Positions 13,937 through 50,004 of a stretch of DNA of 64,000 nucleotides are shown piece by piece (position 1 is the stretch's first letter; every line of letters starts with the position of its first letter). Under the pieces are notes generated by a model. The model worked only from the letters and a program-made list of their open reading frames with translations, had not been told where the DNA came from and searched no databases. This DNA comes from a virus (Duplodnaviria; Heunggongvirae; Uroviricota; Caudoviricetes): IMG/VR virus record IMGVR_UViG_3300020042_002824. One strand, written 5' to 3'. Both the position numbers and the translations under genes were made by a program.

Positions 13937-14497
13937 TTATTCTGCTGCATAACCAAAGAAAACCCACTCTCCATCTCTTTCAGTAGTGGATTTCTTGTAT
14001 GTTATCTTAGCTACTGTCTTATTAGCTTTATCAAGAACCTTCTCCATTGTTATATATGTAGATTCTATTGTCTTTTCTGTATGTGCTCTAGCTTTTGTAA
14101 CAGCTTCGCCTTTAGTAAGATATGCACCAATAAAAGTATCATAACCAGAATATACAAAATACTTAAGTATCCACTTCTTGGTACCAGGTGTAACTATGTG
14201 CTCCACTTGAGACTTAGTCTTATTTTTATTAGGAACAGGTTGTCTAACACATATAGCTGAACAATCACGTTTGTTCATAACATGACTATCAAATCTATTG
14301 TATATGTAAGCAGATACATCTTTAAACTTGCTTTTATTATATGCTTCTGTTTCATCTCTAAATCCACTTGTAGTGCTAATGGTACCATTATATCCTTCTT
14401 GATGACCATATTCTTCTTCAGCTATTTCACAAAGTTTTCTATATACTTCTTGTGCTGTTTTACCAGTTCCTCTTTCTTTAAATTGACATGCTCCCAT
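13937..14497 (-). CDS. hypothetical protein (186 aa)
   Basis: ORF in the operon; no motif. Confidence 0.5.
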   Translation of the reverse strand: MGACQFKERGTGKTAQEVYRKLCEIAEEEYGHQEGYNGTISTTSGFRDETEAYNKSKFKDVSAYIYNRFDSHVMNKRDCSAICVRQPVPNKNKTKSQVEHIVTPGTKKWILKYFVYSGYDTFIGAYLTKGEAVTKARAHTEKTIESTYITMEKVLDKANKTVAKITYKKSTTERDGEWVFFGYAAE

Positions 14498-14509
14498 AAT
14501 TTTGTTTTT

Positions 14510-14764
14510 TTAATCTTTAATACGTAGACCAAACTGCAGATCAAACCAATCAAATGTATTCTCAGCTTTTGATTTATTGCATTTAAACACTTTTTTAATT
14601 AGTGGTAATGCATAAGCTTTGAACACTTCATGTTGTTCTGTTGTCATGGTCCATTTACTATACCATTCTTTTGTCATATATGCTTCTTGCATAGACTTAT
14701 CTATCATACCTAATTGATAATCAATTAAATGTTCAGCTATTGTTTCTCTATTTATCTTTGCCAT
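14510..14764 (-). CDS. hypothetical protein (84 aa)
   Basis: ORF in the operon. Confidence 0.45.
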   Translation of the reverse strand: MAKINRETIAEHLIDYQLGMIDKSMQEAYMTKEWYSKWTMTTEQHEVFKAYALPLIKKVFKCNKSKAENTFDWFDLQFGLRIKD

Positions 14765-14952
14765 TAGAATGTATCTATAAGTTTAACTATTTCATCGTAG
14801 TCATACGTATCTCCTTCTTGTTGTGCTTTCATTAATAGCTTTGCAACTATTTTACCACATTTCTTAGCTACATCTATACCTGTATATGGATCTTGTCCTA
14901 TAATTGGTAGGAATTCCAATACTAATTCTGCTGCTTTATGTTTGTTGTCCAT
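14764..14952 (-). CDS. hypothetical protein (62 aa)
   Basis: ORF with a 1-nt overlap to both neighbours, suggesting translational coupling. Confidence 0.4.
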   Translation of the reverse strand: MDNKHKAAELVLEFLPIIGQDPYTGIDVAKKCGKIVAKLLMKAQQEGDTYDYDEIVKLIDTF

Positions 14953-15161
14953 TATAATACTATTTGAGGTGTTATAAAACTAAATGGGATAGGCTCACCA
15001 AGCTCATATATTTTAATTTTGTCAGCTTGATCTATATATGTCTCAGGACTCTCATCAAAATCATTAATAATGTCCTGTTTGTTACCAATTACCCAAGCTT
15101 CAGTATCCTCATACACTACAATGTATTTCTTTTCTTCTATTTTTGTTTTTCTTGTTGCCAT
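14952..15161 (-). CDS. small conserved protein, paralog A (69 aa) flanking the DNA polymerase gene
   Basis: Paralog of 17116..17334. Shared block WV[IV]G[NT]KQDIINDF...Y....D.[IV]KIYELG...PF....P. Confidence 0.5.
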   Translation of the reverse strand: MATRKTKIEEKKYIVVYEDTEAWVIGNKQDIINDFDESPETYIDQADKIKIYELGEPIPFSFITPQIVL

Positions 15162-17113
15162 TAGAATAAATTTAATTGATTGGGGTTAATAATAATCTTT
15201 CTCTTTCTACCTGCAAACTGTATCTTATTGATGATTGTCTCAGCACGTTCAATATAATATGCATGATTGATGTTTTCTAATGAATGATCTGGTAATAGAT
15301 AATTACATACATGCATCACCCATTCACCTGCCTCCACTTGTATTACATCAGCTGCACCACTATCTGAGTCTTTGTTCTTCACCTTCAATAGCTTCTCACC
15401 AGTGTTAGATACATAATATCTAATCAGTTTGTTGTAGATTGTTTTGTTTTCTTTGCTGTGACCCTCGTAGTGAAAGTCTTTGCTTGCCTTTTGCCTGAGA
15501 CAATAGTCATATATGTTTGTATGATTACGAATGGTATCAGCCACAGGGATATCATGAACATAATAAAGCTCGAGAGCAATAGGTACAATCCTAGCTGACT
15601 TATTCTTGTGAAGCTCAAAGTCAGTGAGGAAATCACCTTTCTTTTTAATTTCTCCATCTGTTTTAATTGCTAAATAGTCATTTACTGTTGAGAATATAAT
15701 CTTCTGATAATCAGTGCGTTCTAGCTCATATTGTGTTATTTCCATCCACCACTTATTAAGCTCATGCATCTTATCAACAAGATCTTTTGTCACCATAACA
15801 GTGACACCATCTGTATTTGCAGATATAACATGTATACCAGCTAGTTCATATGCTTCGATGAGCATGAGAAGACTCAATTCACCTGTAATAGTGGTGAACA
15901 TAGTTAATTGTCTGTCATATATCCAAGACTGCATATCACTGCTTTTGCCATATACAGAGTTAACAGCCAGTTTAAGAGCACCAACAATTCCTTTAATCTT
16001 CTTGTCTTTCTTTGCCAAAGGCTTGAGTTCAAGTCTTTTGTCAAACATGGTTTTGTATCCTCTAAGGAACTCAGAACCCAAATGACCAGGATATCTACCA
16101 TTATTAATGATAATGGCAGGATAATAGCTAGAAACATCCCAATCAATAATAAGGGTATCATCATCAGCTTCAAATACTTTAGGCTTGTTCTCAGTATGAA
16201 GACCACCTTTTGCAAATGTGTATGTGTTTCCATAAAATTCTAATGATTCTTTAAATTCATCCTTCATTGTAAGACGCTCTTTGCTAATTCTCTTTAAGAA
16301 AGCTTGTAGCTCTGGTGTCTGGAATATTACATAATCAGCAATACAGTCTCTTAGCTTTACATCTGTTCTGAATAGTCCTTTTTTTGGAAGATCAGAATAT
16401 TGTATGTTCTTCTGCTCACAATAATATTTCTTAATCATCTCATCACCAATCTTGGAATCAGAGTAGTTTAAGCAATGAATACCAAACTCTTCATATATAT
16501 CTTGTCTAAGCTCCACTTGATTGTTACCCTTATACAATGGATGTTCTGTATCACCAGTGGTTATTTTGTAGAACTCATAAGTTGCTTGTACATCATTGTG
16601 ACAATAGTAGATAGTCTCAATGACTTCTTCTTTCGTCATGTTCTCTTTCAAGTGATGTATAGGCATCTCTTCAATGTTCTCAAAGTCCATCTCAAACTCC
16701 AATCTCTTCAGACTCACACGTCTATTCTTGTTATCATAGTGATTAATCTTGAACAGATCCAATTGTTTTAGGCTCAACCATTCTTCTTTGTATTCAGGGA
16801 ATACATCATAGTTTGCATCATGAATAGTATCTGCAGCTTTCTGTGCTATGATGGCACATATTTCTAACCCACTCATCTCATGCCAGTGTTCATAGTTCCT
16901 GAGCACATGCTCAACCACTTGACTATCAAAGCGTAGATTATTATACCCTACCCAATAATGCTCATCATGTTCTTCTGTGAATCTAATGAATGCATCTAAT
17001 TGATTAGTCCATCTACTCACCTGAAATTCATATGTAACATCTGTGTCTGGCTTGTACACAACTACAAGGAATAACTCCTTGAGTGTTTCTATATCGTAGA
17101 TGAGTACATTCAT
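15161..17113 (-). CDS. family B DNA polymerase with N-terminal 3'-5' exonuclease (650 aa)
   Basis: Exo I YDIET, Exo II GYNNLRFDSQVV and Exo III YCHNDVQATYEFY. Pol motif A DWDVSSYYPAII (DxxSLYPS), motif B KLAVNSVYGKS (KxxxNSxYG) and motif C VISANTDGV (DTDS-like). Confidence 0.75.
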   Translation of the reverse strand: MNVLIYDIETLKELFLVVVYKPDTDVTYEFQVSRWTNQLDAFIRFTEEHDEHYWVGYNNLRFDSQVVEHVLRNYEHWHEMSGLEICAIIAQKAADTIHDANYDVFPEYKEEWLSLKQLDLFKINHYDNKNRRVSLKRLEFEMDFENIEEMPIHHLKENMTKEEVIETIYYCHNDVQATYEFYKITTGDTEHPLYKGNNQVELRQDIYEEFGIHCLNYSDSKIGDEMIKKYYCEQKNIQYSDLPKKGLFRTDVKLRDCIADYVIFQTPELQAFLKRISKERLTMKDEFKESLEFYGNTYTFAKGGLHTENKPKVFEADDDTLIIDWDVSSYYPAIIINNGRYPGHLGSEFLRGYKTMFDKRLELKPLAKKDKKIKGIVGALKLAVNSVYGKSSDMQSWIYDRQLTMFTTITGELSLLMLIEAYELAGIHVISANTDGVTVMVTKDLVDKMHELNKWWMEITQYELERTDYQKIIFSTVNDYLAIKTDGEIKKKGDFLTDFELHKNKSARIVPIALELYYVHDIPVADTIRNHTNIYDYCLRQKASKDFHYEGHSKENKTIYNKLIRYYVSNTGEKLLKVKNKDSDSGAADVIQVEAGEWVMHVCNYLLPDHSLENINHAYYIERAETIINKIQFAGRKRKIIINPNQLNLF

Positions 17114-17115
17114 AA

Positions 17116-17334
17116 TTAAAATGTTAGTTTTGGTTCAACAAGTGTAAATGGTACTTCTTGACCAAGTTCATATATTTTAACATCATTGTTCTCATTCATG
17201 TATGCATCAGGATCTACATTAAAATCATTAATTATATCCTGTTTTGTACCTACAACCCATAAATCATCATTGCACAATACAACGTATTGTTTTTCTTTAG
17301 CTACCACCACTGGAGCGAATGTTTTCTTTTTCAT
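17116..17334 (-). CDS. small conserved protein, paralog B (72 aa) flanking the DNA polymerase gene
   Basis: Paralog of 14952..15161 (see above). Confidence 0.5.
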   Translation of the reverse strand: MKKKTFAPVVVAKEKQYVVLCNDDLWVVGTKQDIINDFNVDPDAYMNENNDVKIYELGQEVPFTLVEPKLTF

Positions 17335-17337
17335 AGG

Positions 17338-17556
17338 TTATTTGTTTTGGTTAAATTCTATTGGCTCAGCTTTTTTCAAAAATTCATTTACTAACAAATC
17401 AAGTCCCATTCTTTTTAATGTTTCTTTTATTTGTTGTTCTGTGTATATGTTTTCATTATCAAGTATCTCAATTGGTGTAATGGAGTTATCATAACTTCCA
17501 AAACTCATTGATTGAGTTGCAATTTTATTTACTTGTTCTTCTGTATATAGTTTCAT
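17338..17556 (-). CDS. hypothetical protein (72 aa)
   Basis: ORF in the operon. Confidence 0.4.
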   Translation of the reverse strand: MKLYTEEQVNKIATQSMSFGSYDNSITPIEILDNENIYTEQQIKETLKRMGLDLLVNEFLKKAEPIEFNQNK

Positions 17557-17780
17557 ATATGTATTGTTTTAGCTACAGTTATCCAACAGTCTTCAAATGC
17601 TGCAGGCATGTCAAAAGCTACTATTCTTTTATATTCTTGTTCTTCAATATACAACTCAAACCATATCATGTGGTCTGTGTCTGTTAGTTTACTAATAACA
17701 CGTGTTGGCCACCAAGCAAACCTGGTTTTGAATCTTACATCACCTAGCTTTGGTGAATCATCAATTATTTCCCATCTCAT
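17553..17780 (-). CDS. hypothetical protein (75 aa)
   Basis: ORF with a 4-nt overlap to the upstream gene. Confidence 0.4.
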   Translation of the reverse strand: MRWEIIDDSPKLGDVRFKTRFAWWPTRVISKLTDTDHMIWFELYIEEQEYKRIVAFDMPAAFEDCWITVAKTIHI

Positions 17781-19910: not shown

Positions 19911-20447
19911 CTACTCATGGCTGTTTATATTATATTCGTCATCATCATTATCATCCATATCATCCCAATCCTCCTCCTCTTCACTATCGTTCTCATCATA
20001 ACCTTCAGTTATACTGTATGAATCTCTGATAACAATCTGACCTTGTACCAATATTGGTTGTCTTGTATAATCATCTACATATAATGCCACTGCTCCATCC
20101 TCACCATCTTCACCATATATGCTTTTGTTTATTGTAACTATAGATAAGTCTTCTAGATCATCTGACTCATCACCATCGTCCCACCATCCTATTTGATTAG
20201 GAAAAGCAAGGATTTCTTCTACATCATCAGCATTGACCATTGGTTGGACAATGTATGCTTCAACAGGTGCTCCATTGACAGCAATGTAGCTGTCCATGTC
20301 CTGAGGAACTATTTGTAGTTCATGTATGTGTAGATATTCATACACCTTACCATAAACCACGTCTTTTTGCTTTGATACAAACCACATACCTGGTTCTAAT
20401 GTCTTAGGCATGTATGATTTGAATACTAGCTTAGCTAAAATGAACAT
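19911..20447 (-). CDS. hypothetical protein with strongly acidic C-terminus
   Basis: C-terminal DSEEEEDWDDMDDNDDDEYNINSHE. Confidence 0.5.
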   Translation of the reverse strand: MFILAKLVFKSYMPKTLEPGMWFVSKQKDVVYGKVYEYLHIHELQIVPQDMDSYIAVNGAPVEAYIVQPMVNADDVEEILAFPNQIGWWDDGDESDDLEDLSIVTINKSIYGEDGEDGAVALYVDDYTRQPILVQGQIVIRDSYSITEGYDENDSEEEEDWDDMDDNDDDEYNINSHE

Positions 20448-23836: not shown

Positions 23837-24226
23837 TTACAAAGCAAGTAATTCTTCTGGCAAGAACTCTTCGCTTCTCTCGTAAGAGACAACTTTGATG
23901 TCCTTCATTGCAATCTCTTGAACTGCACCTGTTCCTGGCATTGAGACAAAGGTGATTCCTTCTTCATTTTCAAGCAATGACAAGCCTGCAATCTCGTGGA
24001 TTGTAATCTTGCCTGCTCTAATCTCTTTGCTCAATTGCGCAGAGCAAGAAACAACACCTGAATTACCCTTGCTGTCTTTTAACAACAATGCAACACGCTT
24101 TGCAGGGTCATTAAGGTTCTTCCTGATGAAAGAGATAGAACCATTCTTGCCAATTAATTGGGCAATTGTACCATTGTCAGTTAATTCTCCTGACTGTCTT
24201 GTGTAGGCTGATAATTTGAATGCCAT
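23837..24226 (-). CDS. hypothetical protein (129 aa), stand-alone transcription unit
   Basis: ORF with its own downstream hairpin plus T-tract (23792-23825). The G-tract repeat region lies upstream. Confidence 0.5.
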   Translation of the reverse strand: MAFKLSAYTRQSGELTDNGTIAQLIGKNGSISFIRKNLNDPAKRVALLLKDSKGNSGVVSCSAQLSKEIRAGKITIHEIAGLSLLENEEGITFVSMPGTGAVQEIAMKDIKVVSYERSEEFLPEELLAL

Positions 24227-33698: not shown

Positions 33699-35252
33699 AT
33701 GGCAATTCAAACAATCCCAGGTTTAACTGGTTTTACCTATGCTAGAGTAGCTTCTATGGACAAGCGTGCAGTAGGTAAATTGACTGATGCGAACCACTTG
33801 GAAAGCTTTCACTCAACTGAGCCTGCTGATTATGATAAAAAAATCATCAGTTTGTATACTCAGAGCTCTTTGTACAGTAATGATTTCTTAGACATGATTA
33901 ACAAGTCTACTCCTTACTACATTGACAATAACAGTGATGCTTGGAAGTGGCAAGTACAAGTACCTTACAAGTTTCCAAAAATCATTGACGTTCCAAGTTC
34001 AACACAGGAATTAAACAAGCCTGGTATTGATGGTCAAGAATTTCAATTAGTGATTGACACTAATGAGTTCTCTAAGAACGCAATCATCTCTGTAGGTACT
34101 CGTCAATATGGTCCACGTTTTTACGTAGTAAAAGATCCAGTTCCTTGGAACGTAGGTTTCTTGTACAGTTTCACATTAGTAAGTGACAATCCAACTGTAG
34201 ATTTCGTAAGCTCTACCTTCTTACAAGTTGGTATTGAATTAGAATTAGTTGACGCTGCTATTGGTGAATTTGACCAAGACTTATTAGGTCTTCCTCGTTT
34301 AGGTGAGCAAATCACAATGTTTGAATCTTTGGGTTCTGCATATGGTTATGAGCACAAAATCACTGAGTGGGCTGATGATAAGATGATGAGAGATACTAAA
34401 GGTAATCCATTGGATATCTTAGTATATGCTCCTCAAAGACGTAACCAATTACCTTTAACTCGTAATGATGTTAAGTGGGAACCATTTATTGAGTTCTGGA
34501 TGCGTAAGTCTATGTTAGAATTAAAAGTTAAGCGTATGATCTGGGCTCGTCCTGGAACTGTGAAGACTAATGGCTCTAAGCAAGAATTAAAGCGTACTTC
34601 TGCTGGTGTATATCACAGAATGCGTAACAATGGTAACTTAGTACAATACAATCGTGGTGAGTTTACAGCTAACTTGATTCGTGCTGTATTTGGTGACTTA
34701 TTCTACAGACGTGTGGATGTTAAAGACAGACGTGTTAAAATGTACACTAATGAAGCTGGCTTTGATGTATTCCAACAAGCTTTGAAAACAGATGCTTTAA
34801 ATTCTGGTCTTACTTTTATGGCTGATTCTGGTAATCGCTATTTACAAGGAGAAGGTCAACACATCACTTACAACTTTGCATTCGATGCAATGGTTACACG
34901 TGAAACAGGTCGTGTTGAACTAATTCACTTAAAAGAATTAGACCTTCCTCAAACAAACCTAGAATTTGGACAAAACAAGAAAAGCACACCTGTATTCATG
35001 GTGTTTGATGTATCTCCAATGTCTGATGGTTCTTTAATCAACAACATTCGTGAAGTACGTATGAAGGGTGCTCCTTCTATGACTTGGGGTTATATCGATG
35101 GTACTCGTCACCACTTAGGCTTTGCTAAGTCTCAAGGTATGAGTTCTGCGAACAAATTCCCTGGTTATGAATTATGGATGAAAGATCGTTGTGATGTATT
35201 CATTGAAGATTTGTCTCGTACAGTCTTGATTGAAGAAATACCACAATTCTAA
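33699..35252 (+). CDS. major capsid protein candidate (517 aa)
   Basis: Position after the scaffold-like gene. Marked shift to cgt/ggt/gct/gta codons, a highly-expressed-gene signature. Followed by GC-rich stem-loops. Confidence 0.6.
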   Translation: MAIQTIPGLTGFTYARVASMDKRAVGKLTDANHLESFHSTEPADYDKKIISLYTQSSLYSNDFLDMINKSTPYYIDNNSDAWKWQVQVPYKFPKIIDVPSSTQELNKPGIDGQEFQLVIDTNEFSKNAIISVGTRQYGPRFYVVKDPVPWNVGFLYSFTLVSDNPTVDFVSSTFLQVGIELELVDAAIGEFDQDLLGLPRLGEQITMFESLGSAYGYEHKITEWADDKMMRDTKGNPLDILVYAPQRRNQLPLTRNDVKWEPFIEFWMRKSMLELKVKRMIWARPGTVKTNGSKQELKRTSAGVYHRMRNNGNLVQYNRGEFTANLIRAVFGDLFYRRVDVKDRRVKMYTNEAGFDVFQQALKTDALNSGLTFMADSGNRYLQGEGQHITYNFAFDAMVTRETGRVELIHLKELDLPQTNLEFGQNKKSTPVFMVFDVSPMSDGSLINNIREVRMKGAPSMTWGYIDGTRHHLGFAKSQGMSSANKFPGYELWMKDRCDVFIEDLSRTVLIEEIPQF

Positions 35253-44039: not shown

Positions 44040-45026
44040 ATGTCATATTATTACAAGTATAACTTTGTCTCTCCTGATCCAGTTTATTCAACTGTTAAGG
44101 AAGAGTTAAAGTCTTATTTTGACACAGGAGCAGTTGATGATTTATTGTTCCCCACCTACTTAGACAAATGTCTTAAGAAGTTAGGTAGGGCAACTTATGT
44201 TATTAGTGAAGAGGTGTTATATGTAGAAGACTTTGAAGCTAGACTCCCAGATAACTTTTACGCTGTAAGAGAAGCTTGGATGTGTACAACAGTTGCTGGC
44301 TATCCATATCAAACAGCCAATTCATTCTACTCTCAAGCAGTTTCACAAACCACAATACAGGTAACTCCTGTAACAGTGGGTGGTACTCCTTGTGTTGATT
44401 GTCAACATGACAATGCTTGTGTCAATCCTGAATGTGATGGTAGTTGTTTACCTGTAGTTATTCCTGCTGTATACAAAACAAATCAACAAGGAACCAGAGC
44501 ATACTCACATGAGTATTTACTCAAACCAGGTAATATATCTGCTAGACAGAATTGTGACGTAACGTATACAAATGCTTGGGAGTTTTATCAAACTGCTCCT
44601 CCTATTAGAGAGTTCACTCCAGGATCTGCTGGTTATGATAGCTTTGATATTAGAGATAATAAGTTTGTTACCAACTTCAGAAATGGAATAGTGCATTTGA
44701 TATTCTATGCTACAGAGTATGATTGTGTTGGTAATCAAATGATTCCAGACAACTATCGTATTAGAGAGTTTGTTGAGGCATTCCTTAAATATAAAGTGTT
44801 TGAAACATTGTCTAATCAACTAACTGATGAAACATTCCAACAAATACAACAGAAGCTAATTTACTATAAAGCATTACATGATGAGGCTTTTATAATGGCA
44901 ATGATTGAGATTAAGAAACAGGATGCATGGACTAAGCAAAGACGTGTAAGAAATGACTTACAACGTTTTGCACAATATGAATTACCAAACAGAAGCTCAA
45001 GATATGGACATGGATGGAACAGATAA
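44040..45026 (+). CDS. structural-module protein (328 aa) with Cys cluster
   Basis: GGTPCVDCQHDNACVNPECDGSCLP. Confidence 0.5.
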   Translation: MSYYYKYNFVSPDPVYSTVKEELKSYFDTGAVDDLLFPTYLDKCLKKLGRATYVISEEVLYVEDFEARLPDNFYAVREAWMCTTVAGYPYQTANSFYSQAVSQTTIQVTPVTVGGTPCVDCQHDNACVNPECDGSCLPVVIPAVYKTNQQGTRAYSHEYLLKPGNISARQNCDVTYTNAWEFYQTAPPIREFTPGSAGYDSFDIRDNKFVTNFRNGIVHLIFYATEYDCVGNQMIPDNYRIREFVEAFLKYKVFETLSNQLTDETFQQIQQKLIYYKALHDEAFIMAMIEIKKQDAWTKQRRVRNDLQRFAQYELPNRSSRYGHGWNR

Positions 45027-48000
45027 TCAAGGAACCTCTAGTGTAAGACAAGAATTTAATCTTGGTAGAGTAGGACTAGACATGGACTCTTCTGTAAATC
45101 AAATACAGAAGGGGAAACTTTCTTATGCCCTAAACGCAGCATTAGAGAACTTTGACTCTAATTCTGTAAACTATCAGAACGAACCTTCAAATGAAGCTTG
45201 TTTAGATTTCCCTGAAGGCTACCAACTTATTGGTACACACTTCATCCAAGAGAAAAATAAACATATATTCTTCTTAGCTAATCCTGAAACAGGAGGAAGT
45301 GAGATAGGATATATGAATAACAATGACTGTGTATATCATTTATTGTGTACTCCAATCCCTGATACAGAATTAACAGTTTGTGCAAATTCAACTTGTTTGA
45401 ACTTTGACATCAACTATCCTATTCATAAAGCTGTACATAAGATTACCAACTGTACCACTGAGGTTTACTGGACAGATGGTCTTAATCCAAGAAGATATAT
45501 TAATATTGATTCAATTCCATACATCACCACATTTACAGGTGATCAAAATTGTGATCCAATCATCACTCCTGTCCTTGACTGTAATAAGTTAAAGGTGCAA
45601 CCTAACTTCACAATCCCTAACTTAGATGTTACTGATGTTGTTGTAGGTGGAGATTTAAAAGCAGGAGCTTATCAATTTGCTATTCAATATTGTAATGCAT
45701 CAGGAGATGCATATACATCATACTACTCAATTACTAATCCTGTATCTATTGCAAACACAGAGATAACAACACCTGACTTTCAATACTCTGTAGGAAAGTC
45801 TATTGTGTTGAGTATCAGTGATATAGATATTACAGGATACTTCCAATACTTTAACTTGGCTGTTATTAAAACAATTAATAATGGCACCACTGTAGAACTT
45901 GTAGGAACTTACAATATACAAGATAAGTCTAGAACCATCACTTATACAGGTCAGAACATAACTCAAATTCCTTTGAGTCTTAATGACATACTTGAGAAGT
46001 TTGCTTATTATGATATTGCTCAAGATGTTACAAATGTACAGGATGTTATTGTATGGGATAACCTTACATCTATTGATAGAATTAACTATCAAGGTATTGC
46101 TAATCAAATTCAACTTCAATGGGAGACATATAAGCTACCAGCTAACAATACGTATGCTGATGGCTTCTACACTGCCAATCTTAGAGGTTATTTAAGAGAT
46201 GAGGTATATGCATTTGAGATAGTCTTTTTATTAGACAATGGTAAACAAACAGATGGTTTCCATATTCCTGGTAGAGCATCAACATCTAATGATTTAATTG
46301 TTGTACCAAATACTAACGATGACTTTGTTGGAGAAGGAACTAGTGCTCCTTATTGGAAAATATATAACACAGCTAGTGTAACAGCTACATATCCTGTTCC
46401 TACAACAGATGCTGAAAAGATAGGAGATGCATATCCATACCAATCTGGAGACTTTGCATATTGGGAATCTACAGATACATATCCATGTAATGTGGATGTA
46501 TGGGGAGACCTTGCTGATGAACCAATTAGACATCATAAATTTCCTGATGTACTTGTAAGTCCTCACTTTGAGAGTGCTCCTATTATATATTCTGGTGGAC
46601 AGATACAACCAACAATGCAATCAGCTAGTGCTGTATATCCAATTGGTGTAAAGATAGATGTACAACAAGTAGCATTTCTCATCCAAGCATCTAGTTTAAC
46701 AGCTGCAGAGAAAGCCTCTATTGTTGGATTTAAGATAGTAAGAGGTAATAGAAGTACAAACAAATCTATTATTGCTAAGGGCATCCTTAGAAACGTGGGT
46801 AAATATGATAGAGAAGGAACTCCTTACTACTATCCTAACTACCCTTATAATGATCTTAATGAAGATCCATTTTTACTTGAGAAGAGCAACGCATACAATT
46901 CTCAATGTGACACGTTCAAAGTGACAGCAACTATTAATGGTAATTTTCAATATACAGATTGTAACACTGGACAAACAGCAATTTTTGCTTTTACAACAGC
47001 AACAACTCAGATATGTTCTATTACACTTCCTGTTGTAAATAGTGGAGCTGCTACATTTACAAATGTTACAGCTACAGCTTACACAATCACTGTTCCACTT
47101 GCTTGTGCTGGTGGTCCACCTGCATTTAGCTATACAGATCCTATCACTCAATCTTTAACAAACATCACTGTACAAAAAGGTACTTCAGTTACAGTAAATT
47201 CTTCTACTGTTCCTGTACGTATTAGTGGTTGCACAGGATACACAATAGTTGCTAACAATAACAATAAAAATACTGAATGTTATCCTGCTCAGTTAGATGG
47301 GTTTAACAATAATGAATCACCATACAGACAGGTGTTTAATTCACCAGAAACTTCTTTTGGACAACCTACATTAGGTAATGTTCTTAAGTTGGAGAGTGTA
47401 TTATTTGGAGCTGGTAGAGCTCACTTTGTACAAGTGAAGGAGCACGCAATGTACAAGCTTCTTACTAAACAAGCACAGATAGATGCTTTGAATTCTAGTA
47501 GAGCAATAGCTGATCTAGGTGGATTCAATGCAACTGCTATGTTCACAGCATATCAATCTTACTTACAGATATACATTAATGGAGTTAGTAGAAGAAACTT
47601 TGCATATTCTTTTAATTCTATATCTAGTTATGACTATAGCGAAGATATTCCTAATAATCAAGGAGTTAAACAAAGACAACTTGATAGATCTCAATATGTC
47701 TTCCCAGGTGTGCAATCTGTGGGAGATGATTATGATCTTAATAACTGGAACAGAGAATCATCAGTATATACCAAAAGTATTGAAACAAGAACTGGAGTGG
47801 GACCTGTACCAGCTTTACCATATCCTAATAAAACACCAAATCTTGTTGTAGCAGGTGTAAGTCAAATTAGTGATAATTCTAGATTTACACTTGGAGAATC
47901 AGGAAACTGTGGAACTCCTGAATTTCAACAAGATATAAAGGTTGTTTCATATTATGGTTCAATCAAGACAATTAACAATGGACAGTGGGGACAGATATAT

Positions 48001-50004
48001 TCCTATCAAACAATTGATACAGGATTCCAAAGAATATTTAATTCTCTACCAGCAAGTGGTGTTGAAGTGGTATTTGGTGGTGACACATTTATTAGTAAGT
48101 TTGGTTTCAAAACTAAGCTTCCATTCTTTATTGATAATAGAGTTAAGGCTCCTGATGATAGTGATATTTATTATGATGAGATAGGTAATATAGCCTATCC
48201 AGAATACTGGTACTCAGCAAGATCTGTATTGTATGACTATTATGTAGGATCTACATTAATGAAGAATATTATATCAGTGAAGGCTCATTACCTTGACTGT
48301 CCTAATGATGACATTGTAGATAATACATCAACTAGTACAACCACTACATCTACTACTCCTCCTATTGGCACCACTGCACCAGGAACATTTAATTATGTTT
48401 ATGATGGTAAGATGTATCTATTTGCTTATGGAGTTCCTTATTACTATGTAGAATCTTCTATTAATGTAGACTTGCGTCAAGCGTTCAATAACTTAGAAGG
48501 TGACTTCTACCCACATGTAAGTTCAGGTATTCCTGACCAATGGTTCCAAGAGAATAGAGTACCTATTGCGTTTGATAATACGTACTACTACAATACAACA
48601 TTCACTAAGCAAAACGTAGAGAACTTCTTCTCTCATTTGCCTACAGATTGGGTACAACAATTATGTTACACATATTTTCCATTTAGAGCAATATACTCTG
48701 ACAGACAAGAAAGTTATTCTGACAATAGAATAAATAGCTGGTTGATATATCGTCCAGCAAGCTTCTTTGACTTCCCTCAAAACTATGGTAACTTAGTATC
48801 ATTAGATGGTATACAGAACAGAGCAACCTTAGCTAGATTTGAGAATAAGACATTGTTATACAATAACTTGTTAACAATAGATACAAGTAATCCTCAATCT
48901 GCATATTTAGGAGGTGGTGAGTTATTTGGTAATGCACCCCCTATTGACTTTGCTGAAACAGATCTTGGTTATGTAGGATGTCAGAATAAAATGTTGCTTA
49001 GAATACCACAAGGTCAGGTGACTGTGGATGCCAAGAGAGGACAAATATTCTTAATTACTGGTACCCAAGCAACAGATATATCAGGATTTGGTTCTGGTCT
49101 AAACAGATTCTTTACAGACCATTTATCATTTGAAATATTAAGATACTTCCCAAATGTTGATATAGATAACAATTTCAAGAATATTGGTTTACATGGTGTG
49201 TTTGATAGCAAGTTTGATAGAGTTATTATTACTAAGTTAGACTACATCCCTCAACCAGGTAAGGAAATATTCTACGATGATGTGGCTAAAGAGTTTTATG
49301 TAAATCAACCAACTGCTGGTAATACATCAGTAAAAAGATTTGTAGCTGTAACAGACTTAGAATACTTCTGTAACAAATCATGGACTGCTTCATTTAACTT
49401 TAATACTAAAAGCTGGGTGAGTTTCCATACATACCTTCCTAACTTTTACATAGGAGAAAACAACTTCTTCTATTCTGGATTAAATGAAAGTTGTGATATC
49501 TCAGCAATAGCTGTTACAGAGATTCCTTCTCCTACCACTACAACCACTACAACAGTAATATACTATTGTAACTTGTCTGGTACAGCAGAGTGTACAGATT
49601 GTATAAGTACAACTACTACAACATCTAGTTCTACTTCAACAACTACTAGTACATCAACATCTACTACTACGTCTACTAGTACATCCACTAGTACAACCAC
49701 AACTACAACTACTGCTACACCAGAACCCACAACAACCACAACAACCACAACTTCAGAACCAACAACCACTACAACTACCACAACTATAACACCAGAACCA
49801 ACTACTACAACAACCAGCACTAGCACTAGCACAACAACCAGTACTTCTACTAGTACTACAACAACAACCACAACTGCTCCACCAGCACCAGGATGTGAAT
49901 TAGATGGAACAGCTGTAGAAGATTATCCAACTGGTGATTTCATAACAACAGAGGGTGGGGATCCAATTATAACAGAAGGCAGCAATAATTTAATTATAGA
50001 ATAA
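44953..50004 (+). CDS. giant virion protein (~1680 aa) with ~130-aa C-terminal poly-Thr/Ser/Pro mucin-like tract
   Basis: Long ORF; start uncertain (Met candidates at 44953, 44977, 45004 and 45010). Internal TSTTTTSTTPPIGTT and C-terminal TTTTSSSTSTTTSTSTSTTT...PEPTTTTTTTT repeats. Confidence 0.55.
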   Translation: MTYNVLHNMNYQTEAQDMDMDGTDNQGTSSVRQEFNLGRVGLDMDSSVNQIQKGKLSYALNAALENFDSNSVNYQNEPSNEACLDFPEGYQLIGTHFIQEKNKHIFFLANPETGGSEIGYMNNNDCVYHLLCTPIPDTELTVCANSTCLNFDINYPIHKAVHKITNCTTEVYWTDGLNPRRYINIDSIPYITTFTGDQNCDPIITPVLDCNKLKVQPNFTIPNLDVTDVVVGGDLKAGAYQFAIQYCNASGDAYTSYYSITNPVSIANTEITTPDFQYSVGKSIVLSISDIDITGYFQYFNLAVIKTINNGTTVELVGTYNIQDKSRTITYTGQNITQIPLSLNDILEKFAYYDIAQDVTNVQDVIVWDNLTSIDRINYQGIANQIQLQWETYKLPANNTYADGFYTANLRGYLRDEVYAFEIVFLLDNGKQTDGFHIPGRASTSNDLIVVPNTNDDFVGEGTSAPYWKIYNTASVTATYPVPTTDAEKIGDAYPYQSGDFAYWESTDTYPCNVDVWGDLADEPIRHHKFPDVLVSPHFESAPIIYSGGQIQPTMQSASAVYPIGVKIDVQQVAFLIQASSLTAAEKASIVGFKIVRGNRSTNKSIIAKGILRNVGKYDREGTPYYYPNYPYNDLNEDPFLLEKSNAYNSQCDTFKVTATINGNFQYTDCNTGQTAIFAFTTATTQICSITLPVVNSGAATFTNVTATAYTITVPLACAGGPPAFSYTDPITQSLTNITVQKGTSVTVNSSTVPVRISGCTGYTIVANNNNKNTECYPAQLDGFNNNESPYRQVFNSPETSFGQPTLGNVLKLESVLFGAGRAHFVQVKEHAMYKLLTKQAQIDALNSSRAIADLGGFNATAMFTAYQSYLQIYINGVSRRNFAYSFNSISSYDYSEDIPNNQGVKQRQLDRSQYVFPGVQSVGDDYDLNNWNRESSVYTKSIETRTGVGPVPALPYPNKTPNLVVAGVSQISDNSRFTLGESGNCGTPEFQQDIKVVSYYGSIKTINNGQWGQIYSYQTIDTGFQRIFNSLPASGVEVVFGGDTFISKFGFKTKLPFFIDNRVKAPDDSDIYYDEIGNIAYPEYWYSARSVLYDYYVGSTLMKNIISVKAHYLDCPNDDIVDNTSTSTTTTSTTPPIGTTAPGTFNYVYDGKMYLFAYGVPYYYVESSINVDLRQAFNNLEGDFYPHVSSGIPDQWFQENRVPIAFDNTYYYNTTFTKQNVENFFSHLPTDWVQQLCYTYFPFRAIYSDRQESYSDNRINSWLIYRPASFFDFPQNYGNLVSLDGIQNRATLARFENKTLLYNNLLTIDTSNPQSAYLGGGELFGNAPPIDFAETDLGYVGCQNKMLLRIPQGQVTVDAKRGQIFLITGTQATDISGFGSGLNRFFTDHLSFEILRYFPNVDIDNNFKNIGLHGVFDSKFDRVIITKLDYIPQPGKEIFYDDVAKEFYVNQPTAGNTSVKRFVAVTDLEYFCNKSWTASFNFNTKSWVSFHTYLPNFYIGENNFFYSGLNESCDISAIAVTEIPSPTTTTTTTVIYYCNLSGTAECTDCISTTTTTSSSTSTTTSTSTSTTTSTSTSTSTTTTTTTATPEPTTTTTTTTSEPTTTTTTTTITPEPTTTTTSTSTSTTTSTSTSTTTTTTTAPPAPGCELDGTAVEDYPTGDFITTEGGDPIITEGSNNLIIE

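What the first reader, a model, noticed from the sequence alone, without database searches (positions are those of the whole stretch)
14952..17334. Family B DNA polymerase gene bracketed by two paralogous ~70-aa genes
ORFs 14952..15161 and 17116..17334 flank the polB gene directly (1-nt and 3-nt junctions). They share a clear homologous core (W-V-[IV]-G-[NT]-K-Q-D-I-I-N-D-F ... [IV]-K-I-Y-E-L-G ... P-F). Duplicated small genes framing a replication-gene cassette could be the recombination scaffold through which polymerase modules are swapped between related phages. Alternatively they could encode polymerase-associated factors such as a processivity or primer-handling subunit present in two copies.
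Basis: partly seen in the sequence, partly recalled or inferred. Interest (0 to 1): 0.55.

Follow-up and report, generated by a model that had tools for sequence, protein, structure and literature searches.

The report
Small paralogous gene cassettes flanking polB
Two real but dispensable small paralogous genes sit on either side of the DNA polymerase gene of a crAss-like phage. The bracket looks like the product of a crossover inside the polymerase gene joining two phage lineages, so it is an example of ordinary phage mosaicism and not a polymerase-swapping device.

Summary
ORFs 17116..17334 (S_up, 72 aa) and 14952..15161 (S_dn, 69 aa) abut a divergent family-B polymerase gene (15161..17113) and are clear paralogues: 44% identity, E 5e-22, z=27 against shuffles.

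S is a narrow family with no assignable function. It has 71 clusters among 5.8 billion proteins, a basic tail and an acidic beta-beta-alpha-alpha-beta core, and no sequence or fold relatives.

Of the 80 closest polymerase loci, 20 carry S upstream only, 5 downstream only and 55 none. Both copies occur only in this genotype, which was assembled independently elsewhere (L152), so it is not an assembly chimera.

S always lies within about 1 kb of this polB. It behaves as an exact one-gene cassette that stays about 94-99% identical in genomes whose pol is only about 75-85% identical.

The window's pol is chimeric. Its 5' ~610 nt (with S_up) match L007 and the rest (with S_dn) match L005 (271 informative sites, p=3.5e-47). 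So pol is the recombination substrate and the S genes are cargo.

Homing endonucleases of three families sit in or beside pol in relatives.

The scaffold idea is contradicted. An essential polymerase subunit is contradicted by the distribution. An optional polymerase-linked role is not excluded.

The parts
17116..17334 (-). S_up: 72-aa small acidic protein, the upstream-lineage paralogue. Its C-terminus ends ...LTF. It stops 2 nt before the pol ATG.
   Evidence: ORF; junction; paralogy. AF2 model pLDDT 77.5 with beta-beta-alpha-alpha-beta topology. An identical protein occurs in many different backgrounds.
15161..17113 (-). polB: 650-aa divergent family-B DNA polymerase with a 3'-5' exonuclease domain. 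It is the conserved anchor of the region and the substrate of the crossover.
   Evidence: phrog_1252 at 1e-139. Profile versus PDB: all significant hits are PolBs. About 30% identity to the Sashavirus, 7-7-1 and Maribacter phage polymerases. More than 4700 related clusters.
14952..15161 (-). S_dn: 69-aa small acidic protein, the downstream-lineage paralogue. It starts MA.. and ends ..PQIVL. Its start overlaps the pol stop (TAATG).
   Evidence: ORF; junction. AF2 model pLDDT 83.3 with the same topology as S_up. The downstream copies group together in the NJ tree, with weak support.
16463..16529 (.). Recombination breakpoint interval inside polB, at about pol nt 585-651.
   Evidence: Three-way informative sites: the window matches L007 at 71/78 sites on the 5' side and L005 at 183/191 sites on the 3' side. 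Fisher p = 3.5e-47.
16504..17700 (-). L007-like segment: the 3' end of u75, u72, S_up and the first ~610 nt of pol. It is 98-100% identical to L007 from about 17700 to about 16900 and 93-98% from there to the breakpoint. L007 has no downstream S.
   Evidence: Sliding identity; gene order.
14460..16502 (-). L005-like segment: the 3' two-thirds of pol, S_dn, c62 and c84. It is mostly 99-100% identical to L005, with a dip to 95-97% near the 3' end of pol. L005 has no upstream S, and its homology to the window stops at the pol start codon.
15158..15163 (-). TAATGG stop/start overlap forming the left junction of the S_dn cassette.
   Evidence: Empty sites in L003, L009 and L014 read ...ttattcTAATGGACAA, running straight into c62.
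14949..14954 (-). The second TAATGG, forming the right junction of the S_dn cassette (S_dn stop / c62 start). Occupied and empty sites differ by exactly one gene unit between the two TAATGG copies.
17335..17348 (-). A-rich ~14-nt leader (AAAACAAATAACCT) that travels with the S_up cassette and also encodes the last codons (..NK*) of whichever gene lies upstream.
   Evidence: The same leader precedes S in L016, L090 and L014, although the upstream gene differs in each.
17338..17556 (-). u72: a rare 72-aa accessory gene upstream of S_up. It is context only. In L139 it lies downstream of S instead.
14510..14952 (-). c62 (14764..14952, variable) and c84 (14510..14764, near-universal core gene), which bound the downstream variable slot.
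   Evidence: Gene-order table.

Best explanation
Shown:
- S_up and S_dn belong to one small, fast-evolving, phage-restricted gene family.
- The family exists as precise single-gene cassettes in the variable slots on either side of polB, in a clade of environmental crAss-like phages.
- There are two positional lineages. The upstream one is common and ends in ..F. The downstream one is rarer and ends in ..IVL.
- Each lineage is present in only a minority of genomes, and each moves between diverged genomes as a gene-sized island of high identity.
- This genome carries both copies, and its polB is a chimera. A crossover about 610 nt into pol joins a left arm (u72, S_up, the pol 5' third) that is nearly identical to L007, an upstream-only relative, to a right arm (the pol 3' two-thirds, S_dn, c62, c84) that is nearly identical to L005, a downstream-only relative.
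- polB is the longest conserved stretch in a hypervariable early region. In relatives it is visited by LAGLIDADG, HNH and GIY-YIG endonuclease genes.

Inferred about the architecture:
- polB is the recombination anchor and the S genes are cargo that hitch-hikes with it.
- That hitch-hiking accounts for the persistent linkage of S to pol.

Inferred about the protein:
- S is a non-essential early accessory protein translated from the polymerase operon through stop/start coupling.
- Its short basic disordered tail and strongly acidic ~58-aa globular core (pI about 4) suggest a stoichiometric binder or inhibitor of a host or replication-associated factor, of the anti-defence or host-takeover type.
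- On that view, two diverged paralogues would broaden specificity. They would not form a required polymerase complex.
For: Paralogy.

Family size and lack of relatives:
- 71 clusters at 90% identity in 5.8e9 proteins.
- Only 12 representatives in an exhaustive HMMER scan of 1.84e9 proteins.
- No Pfam, PHROG, NCBIfam or PADLOC family.
- No PDB sequence hit.

Distribution among the 80 pol-anchored loci: 20 upstream only, 5 downstream only, 55 none, and both only in the window genotype.

Linkage to pol in searches made with S itself:
- 29/29 viral loci have pol within 3-818 nt.
- 17/20 metagenome loci have pol detectably nearby.

Cassette behaviour:
- Empty and occupied sites differ by exactly one gene, flanked by TAATGG..TAATGG downstream or TAATTATGAA..TAATTATGAA upstream.
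- S_up is about 98.6% nt identical in L090, while the sequence to its left is unrelated and pol is 71-87% identical.
- S_dn is 93-95% identical in L085 and L086, while pol averages about 76%.

Chimeric pol: 271 informative sites, p = 3.5e-47; sliding identity.

Real genotype: L152 is 99.95% identical over 6.1 kb.

Other small families also occur on either side of pol: #22, and #16 on both sides in L019.

Endonuclease genes in relatives:
- GIY-YIG inside pol in L103.
- LAGLIDADG directly upstream of pol in L155, and HNH two genes downstream in L154 and L157.

Protein properties:
- Charge pattern: tail +2 to +6 in most members, core -4 to -9 across the family.
- Both AF2 models share one topology.
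- dN/dS 0.12-0.74.

Background: crAss-like phages are known to replace polymerase genes in situ by homologous recombination (PMC7886860).
Against: - The direction of the recombination is not resolved. L005 and L007 could instead be derivatives of a double-S parent.
- If the downstream lineage arose by duplication, an ancestral bracket must once have existed, so retention cannot be fully excluded.
- The tight S-pol linkage on both sides is also what a functional partnership with the polymerase would produce.
- No biochemical function is demonstrated. The binder/inhibitor idea rests only on charge, size, dispensability and the rate of evolution.
- No homing endonuclease gene is present next to pol in the window itself, so the endonuclease-driven part of the model is circumstantial.
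- The monophyly of the downstream copies has bootstrap support below 50%.
Confidence: 0.72

Rival explanations
1. S proteins are optional accessory subunits or modulators of this PolB, for example affecting processivity, strand displacement or primer handling, or shielding the enzyme. Their genes stay beside pol for co-expression and co-inheritance. The double-S genome makes two variants that bind pol.
For: - Wherever a polymerase was detected next to S, it was this PolB family and no other.
- The genes are translationally coupled to pol on either side.
- There is precedent for small acidic PolB partners: Sulfolobus PBP1 and PBP2 (PMC5418573).
Against: - S is absent from 55 of the 80 closest pol loci, including one whose pol is 94% identical.
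- Identical S_up accompanies pol alleles of 86-100% identity, and S_dn at 94% identity accompanies pol of about 79-82% protein identity, so there is no sign of co-adaptation.
- One to three unrelated genes can separate S from pol.
- There is no sequence or fold similarity to any known polymerase accessory protein.
Confidence: 0.15
2. The two direct-repeat paralogues provide homology arms, so the intervening polymerase module can be excised or exchanged between phages.
For: - The copies are in direct orientation and flank pol exactly.
- crAss-like phages do exchange polymerases in situ (PMC7886860).
Against: - The copies share only 66% nt identity, and the longest exact match is 13 nt.
- The observed crossover is inside pol, and the other breaks are at gene borders, not inside S.
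- The bracket occurs in only one genotype among roughly 110 distinct loci.
- S never flanks another polymerase type or an empty site.
- Recombination between the repeats would delete an essential gene.
Confidence: 0.03
3. S is itself a selfish mobile cassette that targets the borders of polB. It would be a homing-type element whose spread explains its sporadic, pol-linked distribution and its high-identity islands.
For: - Its distribution is sporadic and it sits next to a conserved essential gene.
- Gene-sized islands of 94-99% identity occur in backgrounds of about 75-85% identity.
- Insertions are precise and flanked by short repeats.
- Genuine homing endonuclease genes use the same neighbourhood.
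Against: - The protein has only ~70 aa and no nuclease motif, metal-binding residues or nuclease-like fold.
- Other small families that are not nucleases (#22, #16) behave similarly.
- Hitch-hiking on crossovers anchored in pol, or on endonuclease-induced repair, explains the same pattern without any intrinsic mobility.
Confidence: 0.08

Closest known systems
Mosaic accessory gene cassettes ('moron'-like genes and hyperplastic early regions) of tailed phages (own knowledge: Hendrix/Hatfull mosaicism model, Juhala et al. 2000)
   Same: - Single-gene presence/absence polymorphism between conserved neighbours.
- Sharp identity breaks at gene borders.
- Dispensable, fast-evolving small ORFs of unknown function.
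- Exchange between diverged relatives.
   Different: - Classic morons carry their own promoter and terminator. Here the junctions are only 1-3 nt or overlapping stop/start codons, so the cassettes depend on operon read-through and translational coupling.
- The family is confined to the two sides of one anchor gene.
In-situ DNA polymerase displacement in crAss-like phages (Yutin et al. 2021, PMC7886860)
   Same: - The same virus group: crAss capsid and muzzle proteins are present.
- Homologous recombination at the polymerase locus between co-infecting relatives.
- Mobile endonucleases and introns in PolB.
   Different: - Here only part of a PolB is exchanged between close alleles, an intragenic crossover. 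There is no PolA/PolB switch.
- The published work does not describe flanking paralogous small genes.
Free-standing homing endonuclease genes next to conserved phage genes, with co-conversion of flanking markers (own knowledge: T4 seg and mob genes)
   Same: - A sporadic gene beside a conserved essential gene.
- High-identity tracts around it.
- Genuine LAGLIDADG, HNH and GIY-YIG genes occupy the same neighbourhood in relatives.
   Different: S has no nuclease domain or fold. At most it is a passenger of such events.
Small PolB-binding subunits PBP1 and PBP2 of Sulfolobus PolB1 (PMC5418573)
   Same: Two small proteins associated with a family-B polymerase, one of which uses an acidic segment to modulate strand displacement.
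   Different: - PBP1 and PBP2 were found as stable subunits of the PolB1 holoenzyme and are not described as paralogues of each other.
- S is dispensable and usually single-copy.
- No PDB sequence or fold match points to them.
- No binding data exist for S.
Small acidic phage inhibitors encoded near replication genes (own knowledge: T7 gp5.9 RecBCD inhibitor beside gene 5; phi29-family p56 UDG inhibitor)
   Same: - 50-70 aa, with an acidic globular core (pI about 4).
- Early expression and dispensability.
- Location next to the polymerase gene.
   Different: - No target is known.
- S carries a basic N-terminal tail.

Membership tests
Family B DNA polymerase (the bracketed gene) | Exo I/II/III motifs and polymerase motifs A (DxxSLYPS), B (KxxxNSxYG) and C (DTD) | tested here: met
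   Read directly in the translation: YDIETL, NNLRFDSQV, YCHNDVQATYEF, DWDVSSYYPAII, KLAVNSVYGK and SANTDGV. Motif C reads NTD, so the second Asp is kept.
Family B DNA polymerase (the bracketed gene) | Profile similarity to solved PolB structures and to no other polymerase family | tested here: met
   Profile A3 against the PDB. All 28 hits with E < 1e-3 are PolBs (archaeal PolB, Pol alpha, E. coli Pol II), with a best E of 6e-6 over the palm domain. No other polymerase family appears.
Family B DNA polymerase (the bracketed gene) | Match to curated Pfam or NCBIfam PolB models | tested here: not met
   No Pfam or NCBIfam hit at E <= 0.1. Only phrog_1252 'DNA polymerase' hits, at 1e-139. This is a divergent phage clade that the curated models do not cover.
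Crassvirales (crAss-like phages) | crAss-type major capsid protein and muzzle protein | tested here: met
   PF23898 Crass_capsid at 1.7e-26 for 33699..35252. PF25731 crAss_MUZ at 5.5e-26 for 44953..50004.
Obligate polymerase accessory subunit | Co-occurs with the polymerase throughout the clade | tested here: not met
   55 of the 80 closest pol loci lack S. There are 71 S clusters against more than 4700 pol clusters.
Obligate polymerase accessory subunit | Sequence or fold similarity to a known accessory factor (clamp, thioredoxin, PBP1/2, terminal protein) | tested here: not met
   No significant hit in Pfam, the PDB (by sequence or fold) or BFVD.
Obligate polymerase accessory subunit | Physical binding to the polymerase | not testable with these tools
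   No multimer prediction or experiment was available.
Free-standing homing endonuclease gene | Nuclease catalytic domain (LAGLIDADG, HNH, GIY-YIG, PD-(D/E)xK) | tested here: not met
   No Pfam domain and no nuclease-like fold. The protein is ~70 aa and has no conserved His/Cys or catalytic acidic triad.
Free-standing homing endonuclease gene | Sporadic presence beside a conserved target gene, with high-identity flanks | tested here: met
Moron / accessory gene cassette | Single-gene indel between conserved neighbours in otherwise collinear relatives | tested here: met
   Empty versus occupied sites: L030 versus L001 upstream, and L003/L009 versus the window/L005 downstream.
Moron / accessory gene cassette | Own promoter and terminator | tested here: not met
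   The junctions are 2-3 nt or 1-nt overlaps, which leaves no room for such signals. No promoter or terminator scan was run.
Recombination scaffold (homology arms) | Enough uninterrupted nucleotide identity between the repeats, and breakpoints that map inside them | tested here: not met
   The longest exact match is 13 nt and overall identity is 66%. The breakpoints lie inside pol and at gene borders.
Acidic DNA-mimic / anti-defence small proteins | Strongly acidic compact protein, early expression, dispensable | tested here: met
   Core pI about 4 and net charge -4 to -9 across the family. Dispensability is shown. Early expression is inferred only from the location in the replication operon.
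Acidic DNA-mimic / anti-defence small proteins | Homology or fold match to a known inhibitor, or a known target | tested here: not met
   [not shown]

The most novel reading that the evidence does not exclude
The most novel reading the evidence does not exclude has two parts.

First, polB of this crAss-like clade may be an endonuclease-driven recombination hub.

Second, the S proteins may be optional, allele-independent partners of the polymerase, for example decoys or shields against a host defence that senses or attacks the phage PolB. In that case selection for co-inheritance with pol, and not mere hitch-hiking, would keep S glued to either end of the gene, and the double-S genotype would carry two specificities.
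Probability: 0.12. Interest if true: 0.6.

Novelty: new member of a known kind. Interest (0 to 1): 0.3.

Why it matters
The locus is a clean natural record of how the replication modules of crAss-like phages are reshuffled:
- an intragenic crossover in polB that can be mapped to about 70 nt;
- single-gene cassettes exchanged with base-pair precision at stop/start overlaps;
- three kinds of homing endonuclease using the same neighbourhood.

This bears on the published but mechanistically open observation that these phages replace their polymerases in situ. It suggests that the polymerase gene itself, and not flanking repeats, supplies the homology.

The S family is a new, uncharacterised small-protein family whose strict linkage to polB makes it a reasonable candidate for a replication-linked or anti-defence factor. 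Nothing here requires a new kind of mechanism.

Tried and rejected
- DNA search of the region against 50,697 phage records found no match. tblastn with S found none either.
- Searches with S against Pfam, PHROGs, NCBIfam and PADLOC gave only isolated sub-threshold hits: DUF5495 at 0.049 in 1 of 42 members, and CARF at 0.013. I treat these as chance.
- The profile of S against PDB sequences found nothing below E 0.19.
- The exhaustive HMMER scan found no larger protein containing an S domain. The one long hit, P0072, is a repetitive 1170-aa protein that matches only a 23-residue stretch 11 times. This makes it unlikely that S is a split-off polymerase domain.
- Rfam found nothing in the window or in L103 at gathering thresholds, so the L103 insertion could not be confirmed as a group I intron.
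- My single-linkage clustering suggested that the 186-aa and 178-aa window proteins (13937..14497 and 19911..20447) were paralogues, and that family '#19' occurred on both sides of pol. Direct BLASTP showed both to be clustering artefacts, and I dropped them.
- I looked for a specific recombination signal at the cassette borders. Only short stop/start repeats and an A-rich leader are present, and the A-rich leader resembles the general A/C-rich start context seen at many genes in this region.
Full report
**Observation**

All genes between window positions 1 and about 24000 are on the minus strand.
- S_up, 17116..17334, 72 aa
- a 650-aa polymerase gene, 15161..17113
- S_dn, 14952..15161, 69 aa

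The junctions are compact: S_up TAA-tt-ATG pol, pol TAATG S_dn, and S_dn TAATG next gene.

The two small proteins are clearly homologous:
- They align at 44% identity over 61 residues, E 5e-22.
- The local alignment score lies 27 standard deviations above shuffled controls.
- No third copy exists in the window.
- Their DNA is only 66% identical, with a longest exact match of 13 nt, so the duplication is old.

**The polymerase**

- It has no Pfam or NCBIfam hit.
- It matches phrog_1252 'DNA polymerase' at 1e-139.
- It is about 30% identical to the polymerases of Sashavirus, Agrobacterium phage 7-7-1, Maribacter phage Panino and others.
- A profile built with those homologues hits almost only family-B polymerases in the PDB. 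All 28 matches below E 1e-3 are PolB, with a best E of 6e-6.
- The Exo I-III and A/B/C motifs are readable in the sequence.

'Family B' is therefore correct, for a divergent phage clade.

**The genome**

The window is from a crAss-like phage:
- crAss major capsid protein, PF23898, 1.7e-26
- crAss muzzle protein, PF25731
- a replication module with DnaB, an SNF2-like helicase, UDG and a metallophosphatase on the minus strand

**What the S family is**

- Searching 5.8 billion proteins with a family profile found 71 clusters. All are 49-103 aa, without Pfam domains and almost all unnamed.
- An exhaustive HMMER scan of 1.84 billion representatives found only 12.
- By contrast, the polymerase has more than 4700 related clusters.
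- AlphaFold models of both paralogues give the same topology (pLDDT 77.5 and 83.3). There is a disordered basic N-terminal tail, a beta-hairpin, two short helices, a third strand and an extended C-terminus.
- Across the family the tail carries +2 to +6 in most members, and the ~58-residue core carries -4 to -9, pI about 4.
- Pairwise dN/dS is 0.12-0.74. These are real coding genes that evolve quickly.

**Distribution in relatives**

I fetched the 80 viral contigs with the closest polymerases (73-98% identity) and tabulated gene order.
- pol and an 84-aa downstream gene (c84) are core.
- The slots on either side of pol are filled from a shuffling pool of small genes.
- S is upstream only in 20 loci, either adjacent to pol or separated from it by one or two small ORFs.
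- S is downstream only in 5 loci (L005, L045, L073, L082, L083).
- S is absent in 55 loci, including L006, whose polymerase is 94% identical. A few of these 55 lack upstream flank.
- No fetched relative other than the window genotype has both copies.

Searches made with S itself avoid the bias of starting from pol:
- 29/29 viral loci have this same PolB within 3-818 nt.
- 17/20 metagenome loci have it detectably nearby. Two of the other three are too short to tell. In the third, L139, other genes intervene.
- S never neighbours another polymerase type.

All downstream copies share the C-terminal ..IVL signature, with one exception, and group together in an NJ tree, though support is below 50%. 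The exception is L073, which ends ..IVLDL.

There therefore appear to be two old positional lineages, each sporadically present.

S is not unique in occurring on both sides of pol. Family #22 is found upstream in L005 and L016 and downstream in L001 and L007, at 35-39% identity. Family #16 lies on both sides of pol in L019.

**Cassette behaviour**

Occupied and empty sites differ by exactly one gene unit.
- Downstream, the empty site reads ...ttattcTAATGGACAA(c62). The occupied site reads TAATGG-[S_dn]-TAATGGACAA.
- Upstream, L030 reads ...cTAATTATGAA(pol). L001 reads cTAATTATGAA-[S]-tTAATTATGAA(pol).
- A ~14-nt A-rich leader travels with S_up and supplies the last codons of whichever gene lies upstream. 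That composition resembles the general A/C-rich start context seen at many genes in this region.

The identical S_up protein occurs beside different upstream genes, with or without an extra 46-aa ORF before pol, and with pol alleles of 86-100% identity.

At nucleotide level S forms a gene-sized island of high identity.
- S_up is about 98.6% identical between the window and L090. The sequence to its left is unrelated, and pol is 71-87% identical.
- S_dn is 93-95% identical in L085 and L086, where pol averages about 76% and the downstream gene is unrelated.

**Origin of the bracket**

- L007 has u75-u72-S_up-pol-#22 and no S_dn. L005 has #22-pol-S_dn-c62-c84 and no S_up.
- The window is 98-100% identical to L007 from inside u75 through S_up into the first ~200 nt of pol. 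It is 93-98% identical from there up to about nt 610, and about 80-90% beyond.
- The window is mostly 99-100% identical to L005 from about pol nt 610 through S_dn, c62 and c84. Homology to L005 stops exactly at the pol start codon.
- Of 271 sites in pol where L007 and L005 differ, the window follows L007 at 71/78 sites on the 5' side. It follows L005 at 183/191 sites on the 3' side. The best breakpoint is between nt 610 and 612, and the interval is window 16463..16529. Fisher p = 3.5e-47.
- The genotype is genuine. An independent ENA contig, L152, is 99.95% identical over 6.1 kb spanning both S genes.

The three genotypes are thus related by a crossover inside pol. The direction is not resolved. 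The simplest reading is that an upstream-S haplotype and a downstream-S haplotype were joined.

**Why pol?**

- It is the longest conserved stretch in a hypervariable region.
- Relatives carry homing endonuclease genes in and around it:
  - L103 has a GIY-YIG ORF in a ~1-kb insertion that splits pol at motif A.
  - L155 has a LAGLIDADG gene immediately upstream of pol.
  - L154 and L157 have an HNH/NUMOD4 gene two genes downstream.
- Double-strand-break repair with co-conversion would move neighbouring cassettes along. This step is inferred and not shown, and no such gene is present in the window.
- It fits the published conclusion that crAss-like phages replace their polymerases in situ by homologous recombination and often carry introns in PolB (PMC7886860).

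- The scaffold idea is contradicted. The repeats are too diverged, the breakpoints are elsewhere, and the bracket is confined to a single genotype.
- An obligatory two-copy polymerase factor is contradicted by the distribution and by the lack of co-variation with pol.
- An optional polymerase-linked role remains possible. The Sulfolobus PBP1/PBP2 precedent (PMC5418573) is the nearest analogue, but no PDB sequence or fold match supports it.

**My best functional guess**

This is inference only. S is a dispensable early protein, translated by coupling within the pol operon. Its acidic core would bind or inhibit a host or replication-associated factor, as several small acidic phage proteins encoded near polymerase genes do (own knowledge: T7 gp5.9, phi29-family p56).

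**Verdict**

The architecture is explained as mosaic cassette exchange anchored on polB. This is a new member of a known kind of phenomenon, involving a new and uncharacterised small-protein family. Interest is modest.

Noticed in passing
window 33699..35252 (+) and 44953..50004 (+): The window belongs to a crAss-like phage. It encodes a crAss major capsid protein (PF23898, 1.7e-26) and a 1683-aa muzzle protein (PF25731, 5.5e-26). The replication genes are on the minus strand (1..~24000) and the structural genes on the plus strand, with a GC-skew sign change near 24000.
   Followed up: partly
L103:6001-9081 (GIY-YIG ORF at L103:7241-7900): In a relative, polB is split at motif A (..DWDVS|) by a ~1-kb insertion encoding a GIY-YIG endonuclease (PF01541, 2.7e-11). 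This is probably an intron or a free-standing homing gene. Rfam found no group I intron at gathering threshold.
   Followed up: partly
L155:944-1552; L154:3992-4600; L157:749-1357: Free-standing homing endonuclease genes occupy the same variable slots around polB in close relatives (pol 97% identical, identical S_dn). A LAGLIDADG gene lies directly upstream of pol in L155. An HNH/NUMOD4 gene lies between the 69-aa gene and c84 in L154 and L157.
   Followed up: partly
L154:1372-3501, L159:101-2230, L137:4404-6530: Some relatives have a 709-aa polB with an in-frame insertion of about 59 aa between residues 551 and 554 of the window protein. L137 shows a ~180-nt gap in its tblastn match at the same site. 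The nature of the insertion (mini-intein remnant or extra domain) was not examined. L078 (708 aa) and L081 (pol in two ORFs) are also atypical.
   Followed up: no
L005:287-628, L016:5387-5764, L007:4078-4452, L001:10171-10521, L006:8828-9223: Another small-gene family (#22, 113-131 aa, 35-39% identity between members, no Pfam hit) also occurs immediately upstream of pol in some relatives. In others it occurs immediately downstream or further downstream. Family #16 flanks pol on both sides in L019. Paralogues on both sides of pol are therefore a recurring feature of the clade.
   Followed up: partly
window 17335..17348 (-); L016, L090, L014 upstream of S: A ~14-nt leader AAAACAAATAAC[CT]T precedes the S_up start in several backgrounds. 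It also encodes the C-terminal ..NK* of unrelated upstream genes (u72 in the window, #22 in L016). The left recombination junction therefore lies inside the 3' end of the preceding gene.
   Followed up: partly
L103:~215-475 and proteins P0073, P0075, P0076: Very distant S-like proteins exist (about 34% identity, some with a C-terminal extension). One lies 5.5 kb upstream of pol in L103, which also has a regular S. That makes L103 a second kind of two-copy genome, but not a bracket.
   Followed up: no
L139:1194-1925: Here S lies upstream of a homologue of the window's u72 gene, in the order S - 45 aa - u72 - 63 aa. This is the opposite order to the window, and no pol is found within 770 nt. The S-pol adjacency is therefore not absolute.
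   Followed up: no
window 15161..17113 (-): This abundant phage PolB clade (more than 4700 clusters at 90% identity) is invisible to Pfam-A and NCBIfam at E <= 0.1. JGI names only a few members 'family B'.
   Followed up: yes
L144:3613-3984; L085:3196-3462; L146:1-85: Relatives carry unexpected accessory genes in the variable region around pol: a SET-domain protein, a thioredoxin and an NAD-dependent epimerase/dehydratase-like gene (precomputed Pfam hits).
   Followed up: no
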